Shown piece after piece: positions 11,478 to 23,555 of a stretch of 64,000 nt of DNA (its first letter is position 1; every line of letters begins with the position of its first letter). The notes below the pieces were generated by a model, which had not been told where the DNA came from, ran no database searches, and saw only the letters and a program-made list of their open reading frames with translations. The DNA is taken from NCBI RefSeq assembly GCF_009914755.1, contig NC_060935.1. One strand, 5' to 3'. Source of the stretch: the human T2T-CHM13v2.0 reference genome, Homo sapiens. The translations under genes and the position numbers were made by a program.

Positions 11478-12751
11478 TGAGGGTCTTCAATAAATTCATG
11501 AAAAATGCATATTGTGAAAAACTAGGCATAGAGTTCAATTTTTTCTACCAAAATAAACTTATACTAACTTGTTATAACATGCCTGAACAGAAACTAGTTT
11601 AAGGCACTAAAGAGGATAAGACCTAAGTTTGAAAAGAGCCTCTATTAGAGCAACATTAATTCTGCTAAAATTGAAGCAAGAACAAACATCACATTTATAG
11701 TGAAGTTTGGGTGGAAGAGTGGTGAAATCACTGATGCTTTATGAAAAGTTTATGGGTATTAAGTCATAAAGAAATCAGCAGTTTACAAAAGAATAACTCA
11801 TTTTAAGAGAGGATGAGACAATGATAAAGATGAAGTCTGTAGCGGCAGACCATCCACACCAAGTTATAAGGAAAAAAACTCATCTCGTTTATGCCCTAAT
11901 TGAAGAGGACAAACAATTAACATTAGAAACAATAGCTGTCATCATAGACATCTCAATTGGTTCAGCTTACACAATTCTGACTGAAAAATTAAAATTGAAC
12001 AAAGTTTCCACTTGATGAAACTCAAAACTGTTGCATCCAGATCAGCTACAAAGAGCAGAGCTTTCAATGAGAATTTTAAACAAGTGAGATCAAGATCCAG
12101 AAACATTTCATCAAAAAATTGTAACAGAAGATGAAACACGCCTTTACCAGTATGATCCTGAAGACAAAGCACAATCAAAGCAATGGCTACCAAGGGGTAC
12201 AAGTGGTCCAGCCAAAGCAGATGAGTCAAGAGTGAACATCATGGCCATAGTTTTGGGGAATGCTGAAAGCATTTTCCTCATTGGCTTCCTGAGGGCCAAA
12301 GAATGATAGCATCTGCTTATTATAAGAGTGTTTTGAGAAATTTAGCCAAAACTTTAGCAGAAAAGTGCCTTGGAAAGCTTCACAAGAGAGCCCTTCATTT
12401 ACCACGATGCTCCTGCTTATTTCTCTCAACAAACAAGGGCAATTTTGTGAGAGATGGGAAATCATTAGGCACCCATCTTACAGTGCCGATTTTGTTTTTT
12501 CTGATTTCTTTTTGTTTCCTAATATTAAAAAGATCTTTAAGGGACGCCCATTTTTCCTCAGTTAATAGTTTCAAAAAGACTCCATTGACATGGTGAAATT
12601 CCCAGGACCAGTTCTTTAGGGATGGACTAAATGGCTATCATTGATTACAAAAGTGTCTTGAACTTGGTGGAGCTTATGTTGAGAAATAAAATTTATAATT
12701 TTTATTTTCATCTTTTAATTTTGCTTTTCCACAAACTTTTTGAAGCCCTCC
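11478..12751 (+). mobile_element. HSMAR2 mariner, full length, defective transposase (copy 1)
   Basis: TIRs tgagggtcttcaataaattcatgaaaaatg / ttttccacaaactttttgaagccctcc; TA on both sides (11476-77, 12752-53); decayed transposase with SGRP, IVTEDET and HPSYSAD (YSPDL) motifs; many stops and frameshifts. Confidence 0.92.
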
Positions 12752-12779
12752 TATACCATATTACTGGGAAGGCAGAGCA

Positions 12780-12990
12780 ACCAGCATTTATTGAGTAGTT
12801 ATTATGTTCCTGGGACTTTCAACAGTAACCTTGGTTGATCCTCACAACAACCCTGAGCGTTAGATGACACTACTGCTGTCTTCTAGATTAGGAAAATGAA
12901 ACTTAGGCAGTAACGTAACACTTTTTTTGTCATACAAGTAGCAAATCATGAAAAAAGGGTTCAAAAGAAGTTTATTCCAAACCCAGAGAC
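12780..12990 (-). mobile_element. MIR
   Basis: catttattgagtagttattatg...gatcctcacaacaaccctgag...ggaaaatgaaacttagg. Confidence 0.65.
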
Positions 12991-13296
12991 AGGAGAGGGT
13001 TGGGTAAGAACTTGTGTAACTATGTTATCGTAAATTACCTCAACCCGTGACAAGTAACCTAGTGCTATCCAACTAGGAATGAGAGAAAAATCATTGAAAC
13101 AAAAGAAACGTTTAAATTAAAATAAAATATTATGTGTTTATTATATAACAATGCTTTGTTTTAAAACTAAAGGGGAACTTTTAAGTGCTTTACCATTGAC
13201 TAGGTCACTCTGGTGGCACTGCATTAACAAACCTCAATGTCAAGCCTCACTTCCCTGTGTTTCTCTGAGTAACCATTTACGCTTTGCTGAGAAGTA

Positions 13297-13322
13297 CAGT
13301 CATGCACCGCATAACAACATTT
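13297..13322 (+). mobile_element. Isolated Tigger3 left terminal inverted repeat
   Basis: TA (13295-96) then cagtcatgcaccgcataacaacattt; matches the Tigger3b left end at 14139 (caatcatgcccagcataatgacattt) and is inverted to ...catgactg-TA at 15350. Confidence 0.85.
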
Positions 13323-14038
13323 GTGCAATATCAAATGACGGGCACTTCCAATGGAAATGGAGAGTGGCTACCGTCCAACTCAGCAGAGAGGGAGAGAAAG
13401 CCTCCCCCTATTTCATGTGGTCAGCCGGAACAAAGCCTTCACCACTGGTTAGTTTACAAAGGGCACAACTAAGACAGACACGCATATTTGCATTCGTCAC
13501 ATGGTGTTATTGTAAGCACAGTCAGAAATGCTTCGGGCTAGGAGGAAAATGTAATTTTATTACTTCCCACTGTCAAAGAAACAGCCCGCAACTGAAAGAG
13601 ACCTCACCTTGATGCACTAAAAGCAAACCACTCATTCCTAAAGATGAATTTGGGCAACAACATTTTGCAAAACTTACTGTAACACAAATGATTCCTGCCC
13701 TAAAAGCCCATAACCCTAAAGCCTATAACACTTCCTTTCAGTACCCAAATAATGATGGCATTATCCCTAAAAGCTTGATTGTGAGTGTCCCTTTGGTCAA
13801 GAGGCTGAGGTGGGAGGATCACTCGTGCCCAGGAGTTTAAGGCTGCAGTGAGCTATGATTGAGCCACTGTACTCCAGCCTGGGCAAAAGAGTAAGACCCT
13901 GTCTCAAAAAAAAAAAGAAAAAGAAAAGAAAAGAAAAGTGTCTCTTTGGTGATTTAAGAGAGCTCCCAAAGGGATGCCCCAATCCAGTCTCTCAGCCAAA
14001 GACATTGTGCAGCAGGGCCCCTCTTCCTCTCCTGGTTG
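13322..14038 (+). repeat. Duplicated non-repeat host segment, copy 1 (inverted paralogue of 21710-22282)
   Basis: Hand alignment; also visible as near-identical translations in ORFs 13151-13612(+) and 22007-22240(-). Confidence 0.95.
13798..13936 (+). mobile_element. Truncated AluJ/FLAM-type monomer present in copy 1 only
   Basis: gctgcagtgagctatgatt (J-type); TSD agtgtcc/tctttggt at 13784-13797 and 13937-13950; absent from the 21.8-kb paralogue. Confidence 0.85.
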
Positions 14039-14138
14039 ACTGCCCACTCTTCCTGAAGCTTCCCTGAGCTTCCTGCCTGTCATGATAATGCCCTTTACTC
14101 TACCTATGGGGCTTTCCCTTGGAGTGGCTAGGGAACTA

Positions 14139-15350
14139 CAATCATGCCCAGCATAATGACATTTCAGTGAACTACTGACCACGTATACGACAGTGGTCCT
14201 ACAAAATCATAATGGAGCTGAAAACTTCCTATCCCCTAGTGACATTGTAGCCATTGTAACATAGTCATAGGGCAAGGCATTACTCATGTGTTTGTGAGGA
14301 TGCTGGTTTAAACAAACCTACTATGCTGCCAGTTATATAAAAGTATAACACATACAGTTATGTACAATACATACTTGAAAATAATAATAAACCGCTATGT
14401 TACTGGTTTATGTATTTGTTATAGTATATTTATATCATTATTTTAGAGTATACTACTTGTACTTACAAAAAAATAATTAACTATAAAACAGCCTCAGGCA
14501 GGCCCTTTGGGAGGTACCCAGAAGAAGGAATAATATCATAGGGGATGAGAGCTCCATGTGTGTTACAGCCCCTGAAGACCTTGCAGTGGGACAAGATGTG
14601 GAGGGAAGGCAGTGATATTGATGATTCTCATCCTGTGTAGACCTAGGCTACTGTGTGTGTTTGTCATTGTTTTTAACAAAAAAGTTAAAAAAGTAAGAAA
14701 AAAATGTAAAAATAGAAAAAAGTTTATAGAATAAGAATTTAAAAAAAGAATTTTTTTTTTACAGCTGTACAATGTGTTTGTATTTTAGGCTAAGTTATTA
14801 CAAAAGAGTCAAAAAGTTTAAAAAATTAAAAACTTTATGAATTACAAAAGTCACAGTAAGCTAAGGTTAATTTATTATTAAAGAAAGAAAATATATTTTA
14901 CATAATTTTAGGGTAGCCTAGGTGTACAGTGTTTATAAAGCCTACAGTAGTATACAGTAACATCTTAGGCTTTTACATTCACTCACCACTCACTTACAGA
15001 CTCACCCAGAGCAACTTCCAGACCTGCAAGCCACATTCATGGTAAGTACCCTATACAGGTGTGCCATTTTTCATTCTGAGTACCGTATTTTCAGTGAACC
15101 CTTTTTATGTTTAGATATGTTCAGATACACAAATACTTACCATTGTGTTACAACTGCCTACAGTATTCAGTAGAGTCACATGCTCCAGGTTTGTAGCCTA
15201 GGAGCACTAGGCTACACCACACAGCCCAAGTATGTAGTAGTCTGTATCATCTAGGTTTATGTAAGCACACTGTGATGTTTACACAAAGACAAAATCGCCT
15301 AGCGATGCATTTCTCAGAACGTATCCCCATCTTTAAGTGACCCATGACTG
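14139..15350 (+). mobile_element. Tigger3b (MER7B/GOLEM_B) non-autonomous pogo-family element, full length
   Basis: TA-caatcatgcccagcataatgacatttc ... gcatttctcagaacgtatccccatctttaagtgacccatgactg-TA; 1212 bp. Confidence 0.88.
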
Positions 15351-15399
15351 TACTGAGATTCACAACTCGCTAGTCACAGACTTGGTTCTCTCATCATTT

Positions 15400-15825
15400 C
15401 TTATCTAGTGGTCACAATCTTAACTGAGCAGCCTCCAGCCAGAGTGATCTTTCTAAAATGCAAAGTTGATTGTGAATTTTCCCACTCTAAGCCTTTGTAG
15501 GTGCTTCATCACCCATGAACTAATGCCCAAGCTCTTTGCTTGTATACAAGCATCTTTGAGATCTGCCTCAACCTTATTCTAGTTTTGCTTCCTGTGGATC
15601 TCCCCATCCCATACAGCCTCTGGTCCAGCTACACCCACCTCCCACCACCTCAGGAGCAAGCCTTATTCTCTCTAGCCCTTTACCTCTTCCTCTGCCAGGA
15701 AAGCCTTTTCTCTCTCCTCTCTTGGCAAGCACTCCCTTAACCTTCAACATGCAACCCAGAGGTCACCTTCTCCACAGTGACCTCTCTGACTCTTCCAGCA
15801 GTTTTCTATTCCATGCTCACCTAAC
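15400..15825 (+). mobile_element. L2 remnant
   Basis: cagccagagtgatctttctaaaatgcaaagttgat and downstream L2-like pyrimidine-rich sequence. Confidence 0.6.
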
Positions 15826-15827
15826 AG

Positions 15828-18800
15828 TTCTCAATATAAGCTCCACCAAGTTCAAGACACTTTTGTAAGCAATGATAACCCTTTAGTCCATCCCTAAAGA
15901 ACTGAGGGTCCTGCAAATTTAGCCATGTCAGTGCAGCCTTTTTGACAGTATTAACTGAGGAAAAATGGGCGCCCTTTAAAGATTTTTTTAAGATTAGGAA
16001 ACAAAAAGAAACCAGAAAAACCCAAATCAGAACTGTAAGGTGGATGCCTAATGATTGCCTGTTAAGACTCTTATAAAATTCCCCTTGTTTGATGAGAGAA
16101 ATGAGCAAGAGCATTGTGATGGTGGTGAAGGACTCTCTGGTGAGGCTTTCCCAGGCACTTCTCTGCTGAACATCAATGCGAAAATCCTCAATAAAATACT
16201 GGCTAACCAAATCCAGCAGCACATCAAAAAGCTTATCCACCACAATCAAGTCGGCTTCATCCCTGAGATGCAAGGCTCGTTCAACATACACAAATCAATA
16301 AACGTAATTCATCACATAAACAGAACCAATGACAAAAACCACATGATTATCTCAATAGATCCAGAAAAAGCCTTTGATAAAATTCAACACCCCTTTATGC
16401 TAAAAACTCTCAATAAACTAGGTATTGATGGAACATATCTCAAAATAATAAGAGCTATTTATGACAAACCCATGGTCAATATCATACTGAATGGGCAAAA
16501 ACTGGAAGCATTCCCTTTGAAAACCAGCACGAGACAAGGATGCCCTCTCTCACCACTCCTATTCAACATAGTATTGGAAGTTCTGGTCAAGGCAATCAGG
16601 CAAGAGAAAGAAATAAATGGTATTCAAAAAGGAAGAGAGGAAGTCAAATTGTCTCTGTTTGCAGATGACATGATTGTATATTTAGAAAACCCCATCGTTC
16701 CAGTCCAAAATCTCCTTAAGCAGATAAGCAACTTCAGCAAAGTCTCAGGATACAAAATCAATGTGCAAAAATCACAAGCATTCCTATACACCAATAACAG
16801 ACAGAGAGCCAAATGGAGGGAACTCCCATTCATAATTGCTACGAAGAGAATAAAATACCTAGGAATCCAACTTACAAGGGATGTGAAGGACCTCTTCAAG
16901 AACAACTACAAACTACTGCTCAAGGAAATAAGGGAGGACACAAACAAATGGAAAAACATCTTATGCTCATGGATAGGAAGAATCAATATTGTGAAAATGG
17001 CCATACTGCCCAAAGTAATGTATAGATTCAATGCTATCCCCATCAAACTACCATTTGACTTTCTTCATAGAATTTAGAAAAAAACTACTTTAAATTTCAT
17101 ATGGAACCAAAAAAGAGCCTGTATAGCCAAGACAATCCTAAGCAAAAAGAACAAAGCCAGAGGCATCATGCTACCTGACTTAAACTATACTACAAGTTTA
17201 CAGTAACCAAAACAGCATGGTGCTGGTACCAAAACAGATATATAGATCAATGGAATGGAACAGAGGCCTCAGAAAAAGTGCCACACATCTACAACCATCT
17301 GATCTTTGACAACCCTGATGAAAACAAACAATGGGGAAATGATTCCCTATTTAATAAATGGTGTTGGGAAAACTGGCTAGCCATATGCAGAAAACTGAAA
17401 CTGGACCTCTTCCTTACACCTTATACAAAAATTAACTCAAGATGGATTAAAGACTTAAACGTAAGACCTAAAACCATAAAACCCTAGAAGAAAACCTAGG
17501 CAATATCATTGAGGACATAGGCGTGGGCAAAGACTTCATGACTAAAACATCAAAAGCAATGGCAATAGAAGCCAAAATTGACAAATGGGATCTAATTAAA
17601 CTAAAGAGCTTCTACACAGCAAAAGAAACTAGCATCAGAGTGAACAGGCAACCTACAGAATGGGAGAAAATTTTTGCAATCTATCCATCTGACAAAGGGC
17701 TAATATCCAGAATCTACAAAGAACCTAAACAAATTTACAAGAAAAAAACAAGCAACCCCATCAAAAAGTAGGAGAAGGATATGAACAGGCACTTCTCAAA
17801 AGAAGACATTTGTGCAGCCAACAAACATATGAAAAAAAGCTCATCATCACTGGTCATTAGAGAAATGCAAATCAAAACTACAGTGAGGTACCATCTTATG
17901 TCAGTTAGAATGGTGATCACTAAAAAGTCAGGAAACAAAAGATGCTGGAGAGGATGTGGAGAATTAGGTACTCTTTTACACTATTGGTGGGAGTGTAAAT
18001 TAGTTCAACCATTGTGGAAGACAGTGTGGTGATTCCTCAAGGATCTAGAACCAGAAATACCATTTGACCCAGCATTCCCATTACTGGGTATATACCCAGA
18101 GGATTATAAATCATCCTACTCTAAAGACACACGCACATGTATGTTTATTGCAGCACTGTTCACAATAGTAAAGACTTGGAAGCAACCCAAATGCCCATCA
18201 ATGATAGACTGGATAAAGAAAATGTGGCACATATACACCATGGAATTCTATGCAACCATAAAAAAGGATGAGTTCATGTCCTTTGCAGGGACATAGATGA
18301 AACAGGAAACCATCATTCTCAGCAAACTAACACAGGAAAAGAAAATCAAACACCACATGTTCTCACTCATAAGTAGGTGTTGAACAATGAGAACACATGG
18401 ACACAGGGAGGGAAACATCACACACTAGGGCCTGTAGGTGGTTGGGAGTCTAGGGGAGGGATAGCATTAGGAGAAATACCTAATGTAGATGACGGGTTGA
18501 TGGGTGCAGCAAACCACCATGGCACATGTATACCTATGTAACAAACCTGCATGTTCTACACATGTATCCCATAACTTAAAGTATAATAAAAAAATTTTTT
18601 TTTTAAAAAGCTTTGGCTTTCTCAAAACACTCTCATAATAAGCAGCTGCTATCATTCTTTGGCCCCCCGGAAAGTCAACAAGCAATATACCTTGATCATC
18701 CCCAGAAACTATTGCTGTGACTCTTACTCTTGACTGTTCTGCTTTGACTTTGGCTGGACCGCTTCCACCTCTTGGTAGCCATTGTTTTGACTGTGCTTTG

Positions 18801-19496
18801 TTTTCAGGATTGTACTTATGAGTACAAAAGCCACATTTTATCTCCTGTTACAGTTCTTTGAAGAAATTCTTCAGAATCTTGACCTTGCTTATTTAAAATT
18901 TCCATTGATAACTCTGCTGTTACATGTAGCTAATCTGGGTGCAATGGTTTTGGCACCCACCAAGTAGAAAGCTTTACTCAACTTTAATTTTTCAGTCAGA
19001 ATTGTGTAAGCCGAACCAAGTGAGATGTCTGTAATGTTGGCTATTGTTTCTGATGTCAATTGTTTGTCCTCTTCAATTATAGCCCAAACAAGATGAATTT
19101 TTTTCCTTACAAATTTATGTGGATGGTCTGCTACTGCAGACTTTAACTTTATCATTGTTTCATCCTCTCTTAAAATAAGTTATTCATTTGTAAACTGCTG
19201 ATTTTTCTGGCATCATCCCCATAAACTTTTCACTAAGCATCAGTGATTTCACCATTCTTCCACCCAAACTTCACTATAAATGTGATGTTCGTTCTTGCTT
19301 CAATTTTAGCAAAATTATTGTTGCTCTGAAAGAGGCTCTTTTCAAATGATGTCGTAGCTTTCTTAGTGTTTCATGCTAGATCCTATTCAGAAATGTTACA
19401 AGAAGTTAGTAAGAGTTTATTTTGGTGGGAAAAAAAGAACTCTATGCATAGTTTTTTCATAATATGTATTTTCCATGAACTTTTGGAAGATCCCTG
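15828..19496 (-). mobile_element. HSMAR2 mariner copy 2; lacks right TIR; split by L1 (pieces 15828-16167 and 18607-19496)
   Basis: Left TIR cagggatcttccaaaagttcatggaaaat on minus strand; ORFs 18889-19155, 18467-18685 and 15821-16291 carry transposase fragments; ends abruptly at ...gcttatattgagaa. Confidence 0.92.
16168..18606 (+). mobile_element. L1PA7-like, 5'-truncated (ORF2 RT domain to poly-A)
   Basis: [10 protein letters not shown] and FADD RT motifs; 3'UTR gtagatgacgggttgatgggtgcagcaaaccaccatggcac; ttaaagtataataaaaaaa. Confidence 0.93.
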
Positions 19497-21387: not shown

Positions 21388-21709
21388 TAGTCATACTTTG
21401 CTTAACAAGGATACGTTCTGAGAAATGCATCATTAAGCAATGTATACACATTTATCCAAACATAGAAAAGGTGCATTAAAGATACAGTATAAAAAGTTTA
21501 AAAATGGTACACCTGCATAGGGCACTTACTATGAATGCAGCTTGCAGGACTGGAAGTTGTTCTGGGTGAGTCGGTGAGTGAGTGGTGAGTGAATGTGAAG
21601 GCCTAGGACATTACTGTACACTACTGCAGACTTTATTAAACACTGTACACTTAGGCCACACAGATTTATAAACTTATTTTTCTTTCTGTAATAAAAAAGT
21701 AACCTTAGC
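21388..21709 (-). mobile_element. Tigger3b right-end fragment with internal deletion
   Basis: tagtcatactttgcttaacaaggatacgttctgagaaatgc (right TIR); body aligns to 14860-15130; region equivalent to ~15131-15294 missing. Confidence 0.88.
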
Positions 21710-22282
21710 CAACCAGAGGAGGAGGAGGAAGAGGGCTGTGCTGCCTGGTGTCCGCAGCTGAGAGACTGGATTGGGGTGCCCCTTTGGGAGCTCTCTGAAA
21801 TCCCCAAGGGACACTTTGAAGGGAGCTATTTATCCATAATCAAGGAGCTGTGGTTAATGCCATCCTTATTTGGGTACTGAAAGGAAGTGTGACCTTCTTT
21901 AGCGGTTATAGGCTTTTAGGGCAAGAATCATTTATGCTACAGTAAGTTTTGCAAAATGTTCTTGCCCAAATTCATCTTTAGGAATGAGTGGTTTGATTTT
22001 AGTGCATCAAGGTAAGCCCTTCTTTGTTTGAGAGGGAAAAATAACAAAATTACATTTTCCTCGTAGCCAGAAGCATTTCTGACTGTGCTTACAATAACAC
22101 CATCTGATGAATGCAAATGTGTGGGTCTGTCTTAGTTGTGCCCTTTGTAAACTAACCAATGGTGAAGGCTTTGTTCCAGCTGACCACATGAAATAGGAGG
22201 AGGCTTTCTCTCCCTCTCCACTGAGTTGGAGGGCAGCCACTCTCTATTTCCATTGGAAGAGCATGTCACCCGATATTGCACA
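21710..22282 (-). repeat. Duplicated host segment, copy 2 (probable native copy); candidate cis-regulatory element
   Basis: Reverse complement aligns to 13322-14038; continues into unique DNA beyond 22282; carries octamer, SOX-, FOX-, TEAD-like and CArG motifs. Confidence 0.9.
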
Positions 22283-22899
22283 GACTGGGATGAACACAAG
22301 AGGCCTTTATCTTGGTTACTGGATCACAGTCCTGTGCAATTTTCATTACCTGATTGGCTGCAAGAGAAGGGAAGAGTTTCCCAAGGAAGCCACAGATATG
22401 AGAGCACTCCCAGGAATTCAAAGACCTCTTAGTTAGGGGCACTGGCCGTCCCTATTGTGAGCAAAGACCAATGCCATTTTTTACCTAACAAAGCTCACAC
22501 TAGTGTATGGGTGCTGTGTGGGGAGTGGCATGTGTATGTGTATGTGATACTCCCAGGATCTATATAGTTTATCCTCTTTTTATACTTCAAAAATATTTTG
22601 GAAAGGAACTTCTCTACAATGTGCCTCGAGCTGCTTCCTGTTCCCATTTCCCTGCATAAACACAGGGTTGCTTCTGTGAATAAAACAAAAACCACCTCAG
22701 AAAGCAAAGTCTAACAGGCACAGGAACCTCAATCCGTGTGCCAGCTGCCTGCCTCCCATCAGGAGGGAAGGATATATACCCCATATATATTGAGCATTTA
22801 TGGTGAACCAGACACTTTGCATGTTACTTACCTTAAACTTTGAGTCTTATGATCTCTTCTATAGGGTGCACTTTTGAGATAGGTTATCTGAAACTGCAG

Positions 22900-23555
22900 A
22901 GCCCCTTCCTTAGCCCAAGCTTCCACCCACTTCTTGCCTGGATTTTTGCAATGGCTTTCCAGGTGATCTCCCCACTCCAAAATCTTTTCACAAGACAGCC
23001 AAGACGAAGTTTTCAAAGTACGTCTGGTCAGGTGACACATATATACTCTTCACCCCCACCCCCACTGCTAAAAAGCCTCTCATATTATCCAGTGCTTTTA
23101 GCACAAAGACCAGATCCCCTACAGTAGCCAGAGCAGCCCTGTGTGATTTGATCCCTTCTCTGTCTTCAGCTTCATGTGGTCCTGCTTTTTCTCAACTCGC
23201 TGAGCTCCAAACACACGTTGCTGTGCCATGCTCCTGTCTGGCACAAGACCTTCCCATGAACTATTACTTCTGCCTGGGGAACCACGCACAGGCCCACTTC
23301 TCTACCCCATCCCAGCCTTCCTCAACCCTGTGCATCCTTAAGCTCACAGTTGCCATGTCACTTCCTTGTCATGCCTTGGAGTCCTGGCTATGCTACCTTT
23401 GCAGCACTTTTCACAATTTTTAATGAACGTTTGATTATCTTCTGACTTTCCTAGTAGACTGGGCCTTTTGTCTTTCTCACCAATTGTATTTTGAGCATTT
23501 AGCACAGTGCCTTATGATTGCATATGAATTAATAAATGAATGCTTGAATGAATGA
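22900..23555 (+). mobile_element. L2 remnant with 3' end
   Basis: catttagcacagtgccttatg...aataaatgaatgcttgaatgaatga. Confidence 0.65.

What the first reader, a model, noticed from the sequence alone, without database searches (positions are those of the whole stretch)
13295..15352. Pack-type Tigger3 composite that captured ~800 bp of neighbouring host DNA
Seen: TA, then a lone 26-bp Tigger3 left TIR (13297-13322), fused with no spacer to the first base of homology with unique DNA at 22282 (tgtgcaatatc). Next come ~715 bp of that host sequence including a later Alu, a ~100-bp spacer, a complete Tigger3b (14139-15350) and TA. The duplication starts exactly at a TIR and ends at a TIR, and the reconstructed empty site is gagaagTActgag (palindromic AGTACT). 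Known: pogo/Tigger elements duplicate TA, and template switching during gap repair makes P, Ds and Mutator elements pick up nearby DNA. Such capture is well known in plants but, to my knowledge, rarely documented for primate DNA transposons. Inference: repair of a Tigger3 excision gap copied the TIR, switched to the flank of a second Tigger3b about 8 kb away and read through that element. The junction resembles both templates (copy 1 tcaaatgacggg vs copy 2 tcgggtgacatg vs recalled Tigger TCAACGACGG).
Basis: partly seen in the sequence, partly recalled or inferred. Interest (0 to 1): 0.85.

Follow-up and report, generated by a model that had tools for sequence, protein, structure and literature searches.

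The report
Host DNA copied into a Tigger3b
An ancient human DNA transposon carries about 670 bases of ordinary neighbouring DNA between its two ends, most likely a one-off scar of DNA break repair that used a second, inverted copy of the transposon 8 kb away as template, not a new kind of mobile element.

Summary
TA, then a 26-nt Tigger3b-type left end (13297-13322), joins directly to X (13322-14033, later Alu inside). A 105-nt spacer S, TA, a full 1212-nt element E1 (14139-15350) and TA follow. X recurs inverted at 22282-21720, joined to a truncated second element E2. X has only these 2 places in the whole assembly; S and both outer flanks are unique. So X is host DNA, and homology stops exactly at the novel end/X joint. 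That points to copying from the 22-kb locus into the 13-kb one.

- E1 and E2 are no more alike than random family pairs (79.0% against means of 79.4% and 80.2%).
- X-X' is clearly less diverged (87.4%, p=0.0025). So the right part of E1 was probably resident, and the event probably postdates both insertions.
- The "hybrid junction" is not significant.
- The composite never spread, so "Pack-type" is structural only.

The donor later lost 828 nt. A transposase role is open. Orthologue tests could not be run.

The parts
13295..13296 (+). TA flanking the composite on the left
   Evidence: Read. In control copies TA flanks 13 of 20 left ends.
13297..13322 (+). Orphan 26-nt left end of the Tigger3b-type family. 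In my model it is the original left end of the resident element E1.
   Evidence: Top weight-matrix score in the window, 36.2 bits. It matches 15 to 24 of 26 positions in each of the 18 control left ends used for that matrix, 17 or more in 16 of them.
13322..13797 (+). X, first part: copy of unique host DNA, ending with the first copy of the Alu target-site repeat (13784-13797). Base 13322 is shared with the element end, a 1-nt overlap.
   Evidence: 86.3% identity to 22282-21852 on the opposite strand. Only 2 places genome-wide. Alignment.
13798..13936 (+). 5'-truncated Alu piece of the older type with an A-rich tail, inserted after the duplication
   Evidence: Absent from copy 2 and flanked by a 14-nt direct repeat. 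Groups with the older-type Alus among 29 compared. The name AluJ is recalled.
13937..14033 (+). X, second part, beginning with the second copy of the Alu target-site repeat
   Evidence: 81.0% identity to 21817-21720 on the opposite strand.
14034..14136 (+). Spacer S: unique DNA, inferred to be the stretch of donor flank that lay between X' and E2 and was later deleted at the donor
   Evidence: No other place in the genome: the second match for query 13936-14138 covers only query bases 1-98. No window match longer than 12 nt.
14137..14138 (+). Internal TA beside the left end of the full element, inferred to be the donor element's own target-site copy
   Evidence: Read.
14139..15350 (+). E1: complete 1212-nt non-autonomous Tigger3b-type element
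   Evidence: Matches other copies end to end, positions 1-1212 in L006, L009 and L024. 6223 first-look candidates, 40 scored. 13.8% from the family majority.
15351..15352 (+). TA flanking the composite on the right
   Evidence: Read. TA flanks 11 of 16 control right ends.
21388..21709 (-). E2: remnant of a second, inverted element. It aligns to E1 positions 719-1013 and 1176-1210. Its first ~720 nt and ~160 internal nt are missing.
   Evidence: Family alignment. The right end is seen at 21388 by the weight matrix and in the sequence.
21720..22282 (-). X': the parental (donor) copy of X, embedded in unique DNA
   Evidence: The outer flank 22283-22900 is unique in the genome.
22283..22287 (-). 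CAGTC on the minus strand just outside X', identical to bases 1-5 of the element end and preceded by CC, not TA. Unexplained.

Best explanation
This is a fossil of a single DNA repair event, not a working element.

Starting state (inferred). Two copies of a ~1.2-kb Tigger3b-type element had inserted independently, in opposite orientation and about 6-8 kb apart. E1 sat at the TA now split between 13295-6 and 15351-2. E2 sat next to the unique DNA X'-S' at about 22 kb.

The event (inferred). E1 was later broken near its left end, or was excised and partly refilled from the sister chromatid. The 3' end on the element-body side invaded E2 through Tigger-Tigger homology. It was extended out of E2's left end, through E2's TA, through S' and about 565 nt of X'. 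The new strand was then released and joined, with only 1 nt of overlap, to the other broken end, which kept element bases 1-26.

The product. TA, end(1-26), X, S, TA, full element, TA: about 670 nt of host flank duplicated in inverted orientation inside transposon termini.

Afterwards. An older-type Alu landed in X. The donor lost 828 nt (S', TA and E2 bases 1-721) and a further ~160 nt inside E2. The composite never transposed.

What is shown: the anatomy, the uniqueness of X, S and the flanks, the position of the joints, and the divergence figures. What is inferred: the direction of copying, the homology-primed step, the later donor deletion and the cause of the break. The divergence figures lean towards a break that came after the family's active period and owed nothing to its transposase.
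For: 1. X has exactly 2 places in the assembly. S has 1. The flanks 12756-13296 and 22283-22900 are unique.
2. X-X' homology starts at the end/X joint, a junction that exists in no ordinary element. That is expected if the joint was made by the event that brought X in.
3. The orphan 26-mer is unmistakably a left end, in the right orientation to pair with E1's right end. TA sits on both sides.
4. In both loci X is followed, in the same relative orientation, by the same family. So a Tigger-Tigger homology step is available, and the insert is inverted relative to its source.
5. E1-E2 identity (79.0%) equals that of random family pairs (means 79.4% and 80.2% over 25 copies each). It is lower than X-X' (87.4%; p 0.0025, or 0.00095 without CpG sites; transversions 23 of 516 against 22 of 267, p 0.036). 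So E1 from position 719 on was not copied together with X, as expected for a resident element repaired only at its left side.
6. 0 of 29 control loci of the family, each with 1.5-kb flanks, carry a second orphan left end in the same orientation. The structure is therefore not a common by-product.
7. Homologous invasion ended by microhomology or end joining, with template switching, has been shown in mammalian cells (PMC5104497, abstract read).
Against: 1. The donor today lacks S' and E2 bases 1-721. The key prediction, that S once lay between X' and a full E2, rests on an assumed extra 828-nt deletion. The homology-primed junction itself cannot be seen.
2. The 5 nt just outside X' read CAGTC, the first 5 bases of the element end. 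The chance of that exact 5-mer at that spot is about 1 in 1024. Simple annealing there would have removed end bases 6-26, which are present.
3. Identity along X is uneven: 94% at 13371-13470 and 79% at 13948-14033. Later gene conversion or constraint may have lowered X-X' divergence, which would weaken both the dating and point 5 above.
4. Two Tigger copies about 12% diverged at the time would be poor partners for homologous invasion if the event was really late.
5. No outgroup sequence was available to confirm the empty site or the donor's original state.
Confidence: 0.55

Rival explanations
1. Tigger3 transposase excised the resident element. The left gap end copied 26 nt of the end from the sister chromatid and switched by microhomology to X' 8 kb away. 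It then read through S' and the whole second element, giving a Pack-type (transduplicating) Tigger3 composite that could in principle be mobilised.
For: It gives the same product as the best explanation, and all the anatomy fits. The break lies within 26 nt of the element's tip, where a transposase acts. TA flanks and both family ends are intact, so the composite has what a transposase would need. Abortive gap repair with filler DNA is the classical source of rearranged P, Ds and Mutator elements (recalled; one search returned only a search listing).
Against: - X-X' is about half as diverged as E1-E2. Its per-lineage divergence (about 5-6%) is below every one of 25 sampled family copies (10.9-22.6% from the majority). 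That suggests the family had stopped moving.
- E1 positions 719 to about 990 show no special kinship to E2, so the element was not read through entirely.
- The proposed first switch has only 1 nt of overlap, and the "hybrid" patch is not significant.
- There is no sign of mobilisation: X has 2 places only.
Confidence: 0.25
2. The composite moved as a unit. An element of the form end-X-S-element transposed between the two loci, and the 22-kb copy then lost 20 nt of its end (leaving CAGTC), the 828 nt and ~160 nt.
For: CAGTC sits directly outside X' where the element end would begin. The right end of E2 is present with a TA-like flank.
Against: - It predicts equal divergence for X and for the element part, but they differ (p 0.0025).
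- CAGTC is preceded by CC. Only 1 of 36 control ends has a flank differing from TA at both bases.
- The original host copy of X would have to be lost, since only 2 places exist.
- It needs one more deletion than the best model.
Confidence: 0.04
3. Reverse direction. X-S is native at the 13-kb locus, next to a stump of an older element, and the 22-kb copy is the derived one, made by repair of E2 from E1.
For: The mechanism is symmetrical. CAGTC could be the stump of E2's left end.
Against: - Copying would have had to stop, to the base, at the pre-existing end/X joint of the other locus.
- The CC flank argues against it.
- An extra event is needed to create the 26-nt stump.
- The same 828-nt deletion is still needed.
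Confidence: 0.05
4. An inversion made by staggered breaks. The 7.7 kb between X and X' was inverted, and X was duplicated by fill-in at the two ends. Ancestrally, one filler-bearing element (end-X-element 722-1212) existed.
For: Inverted duplicates flanking a segment are the known signature of staggered-break inversions (recalled). No 828-nt deletion is needed.
Against: Both nicks would have to fall exactly on the two Tigger/non-Tigger joints. X would then have no parental host copy anywhere.
Confidence: 0.03

Closest known systems
Homologous repair with non-canonical termination: long-tract gene conversion ended by microhomology or end joining, with template switching, in mammalian cells (PMC5104497, abstract read)
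   Same: One homology-driven step. Copying runs on into DNA that has no homology with the second break end. The final joint has 0 to a few nt of overlap (here 1 nt).
   Different: Here the template is an ectopic, inverted, diverged repeat 6-8 kb away rather than the sister chromatid. The event is an old germline fossil, so the steps are inferred.
Inverted-repeat-mediated two-junction rearrangements of the human genome, DUP-TRP/INV-DUP (PMC4352052 and PMC11293582, abstracts in the search listing)
   Same: A pair of inverted repeats supplies one junction, and a second junction forms without homology. The new copy is inverted.
   Different: The scale is hundreds of bases rather than tens to hundreds of kb, with no triplication. 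The repeats are old transposon copies, not low-copy repeats.
P-element-induced gap repair from ectopic templates, and abortive gap repair with filler DNA in Ds and Mutator elements (recalled from memory; no paper read here)
   Same: A transposon's ends are kept and foreign nearby DNA lies between them. The template is another copy of the same element plus its flank.
   Different: Involvement of a transposase is not shown here, and the divergence figures lean against it.
Pack-MULE, Pack-CACTA and Pack-TYPE elements of plants (reviews and papers seen only in search listings); Turmoil-1 of C. elegans (PMC2572040, abstract in the listing)
   Same: Family termini and a target-site duplication enclose DNA that has a parental copy elsewhere in the genome.
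   Different: No amplification or movement of the composite. The captured DNA is non-genic flank. A whole second element is enclosed as well.

Membership tests
   E1's left end (23.0 bits) and the reverse complement of its right end (12.8 bits) are found by the same left-end matrix. The ends are shared with 18 or more other copies.
   TA lies on both sides of the composite and beside E1's own left end. In the controls, 13 of 20 left ends and 11 of 16 right ends have TA.
   6223 first-look candidates, 40 scored. Long matches are 75-80% identical, and 3 of them span positions 1-1212.
No repeat library is on hand. Repbase does list a Tigger3b (PMC5753468, passages read).
Pack-type (transduplicating) DNA transposon | Family termini and a target-site duplication enclosing foreign DNA | tested here: met
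Pack-type (transduplicating) DNA transposon | The enclosed DNA has a parental copy at a host locus | tested here: met
   X' at 21720-22282 lies in unique DNA.
Pack-type (transduplicating) DNA transposon | The composite has moved or multiplied: further copies with their own target-site duplications | tested here: not met
   X has only 2 places in the whole assembly, the parent and this one. S has 1 place.
Pack-type (transduplicating) DNA transposon | The enclosed DNA is a gene or exon fragment | not tested
   The hub's annotation lists no gene in the window. I ran no search of my own on X for coding or RNA content.
Ectopic homologous repair ended by end joining (inverted-repeat-mediated templated insertion) | A homologous repeat pair at recipient and donor, with the insert inverted as the repeats are | tested here: met
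   E1 is on the plus strand and E2 on the minus strand. X and X' are inverted likewise.
Ectopic homologous repair ended by end joining (inverted-repeat-mediated templated insertion) | One junction lies inside the shared repeat, making a chimeric element | tested here: inconclusive
   E2 bases 1-721 are deleted, so the left part of E1 cannot be compared. The part that can be compared (719 to about 990) looks resident.
Ectopic homologous repair ended by end joining (inverted-repeat-mediated templated insertion) | The other junction has no homology or only microhomology | tested here: met
   1 nt (T at 13322) is shared between the element end and X'. A longer hybrid patch is not significant.
Ectopic homologous repair ended by end joining (inverted-repeat-mediated templated insertion) | The donor is left unchanged by the event | tested here: inconclusive
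   The donor lacks 828 nt that the copy has. A later independent deletion explains it but is assumed.

The most novel reading that the evidence does not exclude
The break was made by the Tigger3 transposase. On that reading, this locus is a caught-in-the-act fossil of a pogo/Tigger element picking up host flank by abortive gap repair from an ectopic sister element. That is the birth of a Pack-like composite with intact ends in the primate lineage, which my searches did not find described for mammalian cut-and-paste transposons. Searches looked for it; the only paper holding both 'Tigger' and 'transduplication' is an unrelated Arabidopsis study.
Probability: 0.25. Interest if true: 0.55.

Novelty: new member of a known kind. 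Interest (0 to 1): 0.35.

Why it matters
It is a clean, base-resolved example of how two old, inverted transposon copies a few kb apart can seed a small inverted duplication of unique DNA in the human germline. One junction uses repeat homology and the other is an end join.

It also shows how a structure that looks like a gene-capturing transposon can arise without ever being mobile. That is a caution for anyone scanning animal genomes for Pack-like elements.

If orthologues showed the event fell within the family's active period, it would document host-DNA capture by a Tigger element in primates. That would interest transposon specialists but would not change the field.

Tried and rejected
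- X as an interspersed repeat: rejected. It has 2 places genome-wide.
- A larger inverted segmental duplication. One search showed further inverted matches: 11481-12355 with 19493-18607, and 12353-12685 with 16170-15828. These belong to a family with 1133 first-look candidates. Their identity (81-84%) is close to that of other members (76-80%), and their order is not colinear with X and the element. Rejected as part of the event.
- The "junction resembles both templates" idea. Local alignment of 13323-13352 against 20 family copies gave shuffle p of 0.05 and 0.29. Control 30-mers scored equally. The mismatch cluster there is one of four. Not supported.
- Shared derived changes between E1 and E2: none evident, and each is closer to the family majority than to the other.
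- A search for S near the donor found nothing longer than 12 nt.
- Pace and Feschotte 2007, for the family's published age, is not held under the PMC id or the DOI I recalled. I saw no published age.
- No other mammalian genome is held, so the orthologue test was not run.
- No genome-wide scan for other orphan ends was attempted beyond the 29 control loci.

Rows dropped before counts:
- 4 of 29 control copies (L020, L027, L031, L032, spans over 1300 nt) were left out of the family alignment.
- The weight matrix used 18 of the 25 aligned copies, those with a recognisable left end.
- The E1-E2 comparison used alignment columns 978-1262 only. It leaves out the last ~24 nt before E2's internal deletion and the 35-nt terminal block.
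Full report
**What is there**

The left locus reads as follows:
- TA at 13295-6;
- a 26-nt element end at 13297-13322;
- X at 13322-14033;
- spacer S at 14034-14136;
- TA at 14137-8;
- a complete 1212-nt element E1 at 14139-15350;
- TA at 15351-2.

The matches to the second locus come from a BLAST of 13000-15700 against the window:
- 13322-13766 matches 22282-21852 on the other strand, 86.3% over 446 columns, E 1.4e-153.
- 13935-14033 matches 21817-21720, 81.0%.
- 14860-15117 matches 21709-21453, 81.6%.
- 15304-15326 matches 21431-21409, 23 of 23.

A global alignment shows the gap between the two X blocks is a 5'-truncated Alu with an A-rich tail, about 13798-13936. It is flanked by a 14-nt direct repeat, 13 of 14 identical. 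The second copy lacks the Alu and has the repeat once.

The same alignment shows no similarity left of 13322. Read on the minus strand, the second locus is: unique flank, X' (22282-21720), then directly element positions 719-1013 and 1176-1210 (E2, 21709-21388).

**Is the 26-mer a real element end?**

I took 29 other copies of the family from the window's own assembly (6223 first-look candidates, 40 scored, long matches 75-80% identical). I aligned 25 of them; 4 with spans over 1300 nt were dropped.

A weight matrix from the 18 copies with recognisable left ends puts 13297 first among all 127,950 positions of the window, at 36.2 bits. E1's own left end scores 23.0 and E1's right end on the other strand 12.8. 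The 26-mer is of the left-end type and points the right way to pair with E1's right end.

TA flanks 13 of 20 control left ends and 11 of 16 control right ends.

No repeat library was available. Repbase does list Tigger3b among Mariner/Tc1-type families (PMC5753468, passages read).

**Is X host DNA?**

Yes.
- 13323-13766 has 2 places in the 3.1-Gb assembly, itself and X' (2 candidates, both scored).
- For 13936-14138, the second place covers only the X part, so S occurs once.
- A sensitive search finds nothing of S longer than 12 nt in the window.
- Left flank: only the first ~80 nt of 12686-13296 belong to a repeat, and the rest is unique.
- Outer donor flank: 22283-22900 is unique.

The third, comparison with other mammals, could not be run.

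**Other inverted matches nearby**

The self-comparison of 10-25 kb also pairs 11481-12355 with 19493-18607 (80.8%) and 12353-12685 with 16170-15828 (84.3%). This is an interspersed family with 1133 first-look candidates whose members are 76-80% identical. Its order relative to X and the element differs between the two sides. I treat it as two independent insertions.

**Direction of copying**

The joint between element base 26 and X exists in no ordinary element, so it was made by a rearrangement. X-X' homology begins exactly there, with 1 nt (T) of overlap. This is expected if X was brought in from the 22-kb locus by the event that made the joint. It would be a base-perfect coincidence in the reverse direction.

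**Was the whole second element copied too?**

Over E1 positions 719 to about 990:
- E1 and E2 differ at 56 of 267 sites (79.0% identity).
- E1 against the 25 other copies averages 79.4% (range 75.7-81.9%).
- E2 against them averages 80.2% (range 74.6-84.8%).
- Each of E1 and E2 is closer to the family majority than to the other.

X and X' differ at 65 of 516 sites (87.4% identity). Leaving out CpG-type sites, that is 50 of 494 for X-X' against 49 of 259 for E1-E2. Fisher p is 0.0025 for all sites and 0.00095 without CpG sites. Transversions are 23 of 516 against 22 of 267, p 0.036.

So this part of E1 was not copied from E2 together with X. It looks like a resident element.

**Timing**

- E1 lies 13.8% from the family majority (13.0% without CpG sites) and E2 14.4% (13.9%).
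- The 25 others lie 10.9-22.6% from it, mean 14.1%.
- X-X' per lineage is about 6.3% (5.1% without CpG sites).
- The Alu piece groups with the older-type Alus among 29 compared. By eye it differs at about 9 of 106 positions from their majority.

These figures place the event well after both element insertions, and probably after the family stopped moving.

The caveat is that identity along X is uneven, from 94% at 13371-13470 to 79% at 13948-14033. Gene conversion between the inverted copies, or constraint on the parental copy, could make the event look younger than it is. I saw no published age for the family.

**Mechanism**

The simplest path that gives the observed order has these steps:
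1. E1 breaks near its left end.
2. The body-side 3' end invades the inverted paralogue E2.
3. Synthesis runs leftwards out of E2 through its TA, through S' and through X'.
4. The strand is released and end-joined to the stump that holds element bases 1-26.

This needs one homology-driven step and one end joining. It explains the internal TA, the second complete left end, the inverted orientation, and why the rest of E1 looks resident.

In that order the stump switches to X' first and homology is used last. But its first switch has only 1 nt of overlap. The proposed hybrid patch is not significant, and the mismatch cluster there is one of four in X.

Either way the donor must later have lost 828 nt: S', TA and E2 bases 1-721. 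That is why X' now abuts element position ~719.

Mammalian cells are known to end homologous repair by microhomology or end joining, with template switches (PMC5104497, abstract). Inverted repeats are known to seed two-junction inverted duplications in human DNA (abstracts in the listing).

**What does not fit**

Just outside X' the donor reads CAGTC, the first five bases of the element end, preceded by CC. As chance this is about 1 in 1024 for that exact word, or about 2% if any 5-mer of the 26-nt end counts.

It could instead be the stump of an element end. That would favour a transposed composite or the reverse direction. Several points count against this:
- Only 1 of 36 control ends has a flank differing from TA at both bases.
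- Those models predict equal divergence of X and the element part, which is rejected.
- They need a lost third copy of X or a base-perfect stop.

I leave it unexplained.

**Is it a Pack-type transposon?**

Structurally it is: family ends and TA enclose DNA with a parental copy elsewhere. But the defining sign of mobility is absent. There is no further copy of X or S anywhere, and 0 of 29 control loci show a like structure.

My searches found no report of such capture by Tigger elements. One search returned one unrelated paper, and searches listed plant, fungal, nematode and bat Helitron cases. One abstract states that transduplication of coding genes was unknown in animals in 2008 (PMC2572040, listing). 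These searches cover only the held library.

**Verdict**

The role of the transposase, the read-through of the whole element, the hybrid junction and the Pack label do not, or stay open. This is a new instance of a known kind of repair scar, of moderate interest. Orthologous loci would settle the open points.

Noticed in passing
window 11481-12755, and 15828-16170 plus 18607-19493: Two inverted copies of an interspersed repeat: 1133 first-look candidates genome-wide, with members 76-80% identical. The second copy is split by about 2.4 kb (16171-18606), which coincides with the stretches NCBI masks as repeats. The two copies are 81-84% identical to each other, at or just above the best other members. 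I guess it is an L1 3' part (recall only).
   Followed up: partly
window 21388-21709: Besides its missing first ~720 nt, E2 lacks about 160 nt matching E1 positions 1014-1175. Its terminal bases are ambiguous: either the end starts with T instead of C and has a TG flank, or 2 nt are lost and the flank is TA.
   Followed up: partly
window 13578-13592 and 21830-21850: There are two indels between X and X': 15 nt present only in copy 1, and about 20 nt present only in copy 2 just before the Alu site. Without an outgroup it cannot be said which copy changed.
   Followed up: no
L034 (G000:C4:92823390-92827461), locus positions 808 and 1501: In this control copy the only left-end match lies about 560 nt further out than the aligned body predicts. 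Something is inserted between the end and the body, either an ordinary later insertion or a second case of foreign DNA inside the family's ends.
   Followed up: no
window 13371-13470: This is the best-conserved 100 nt of the X/X' pair, with 6 mismatches of 100. That could mean constraint on this piece of unique DNA or a later gene-conversion tract.
   Followed up: no
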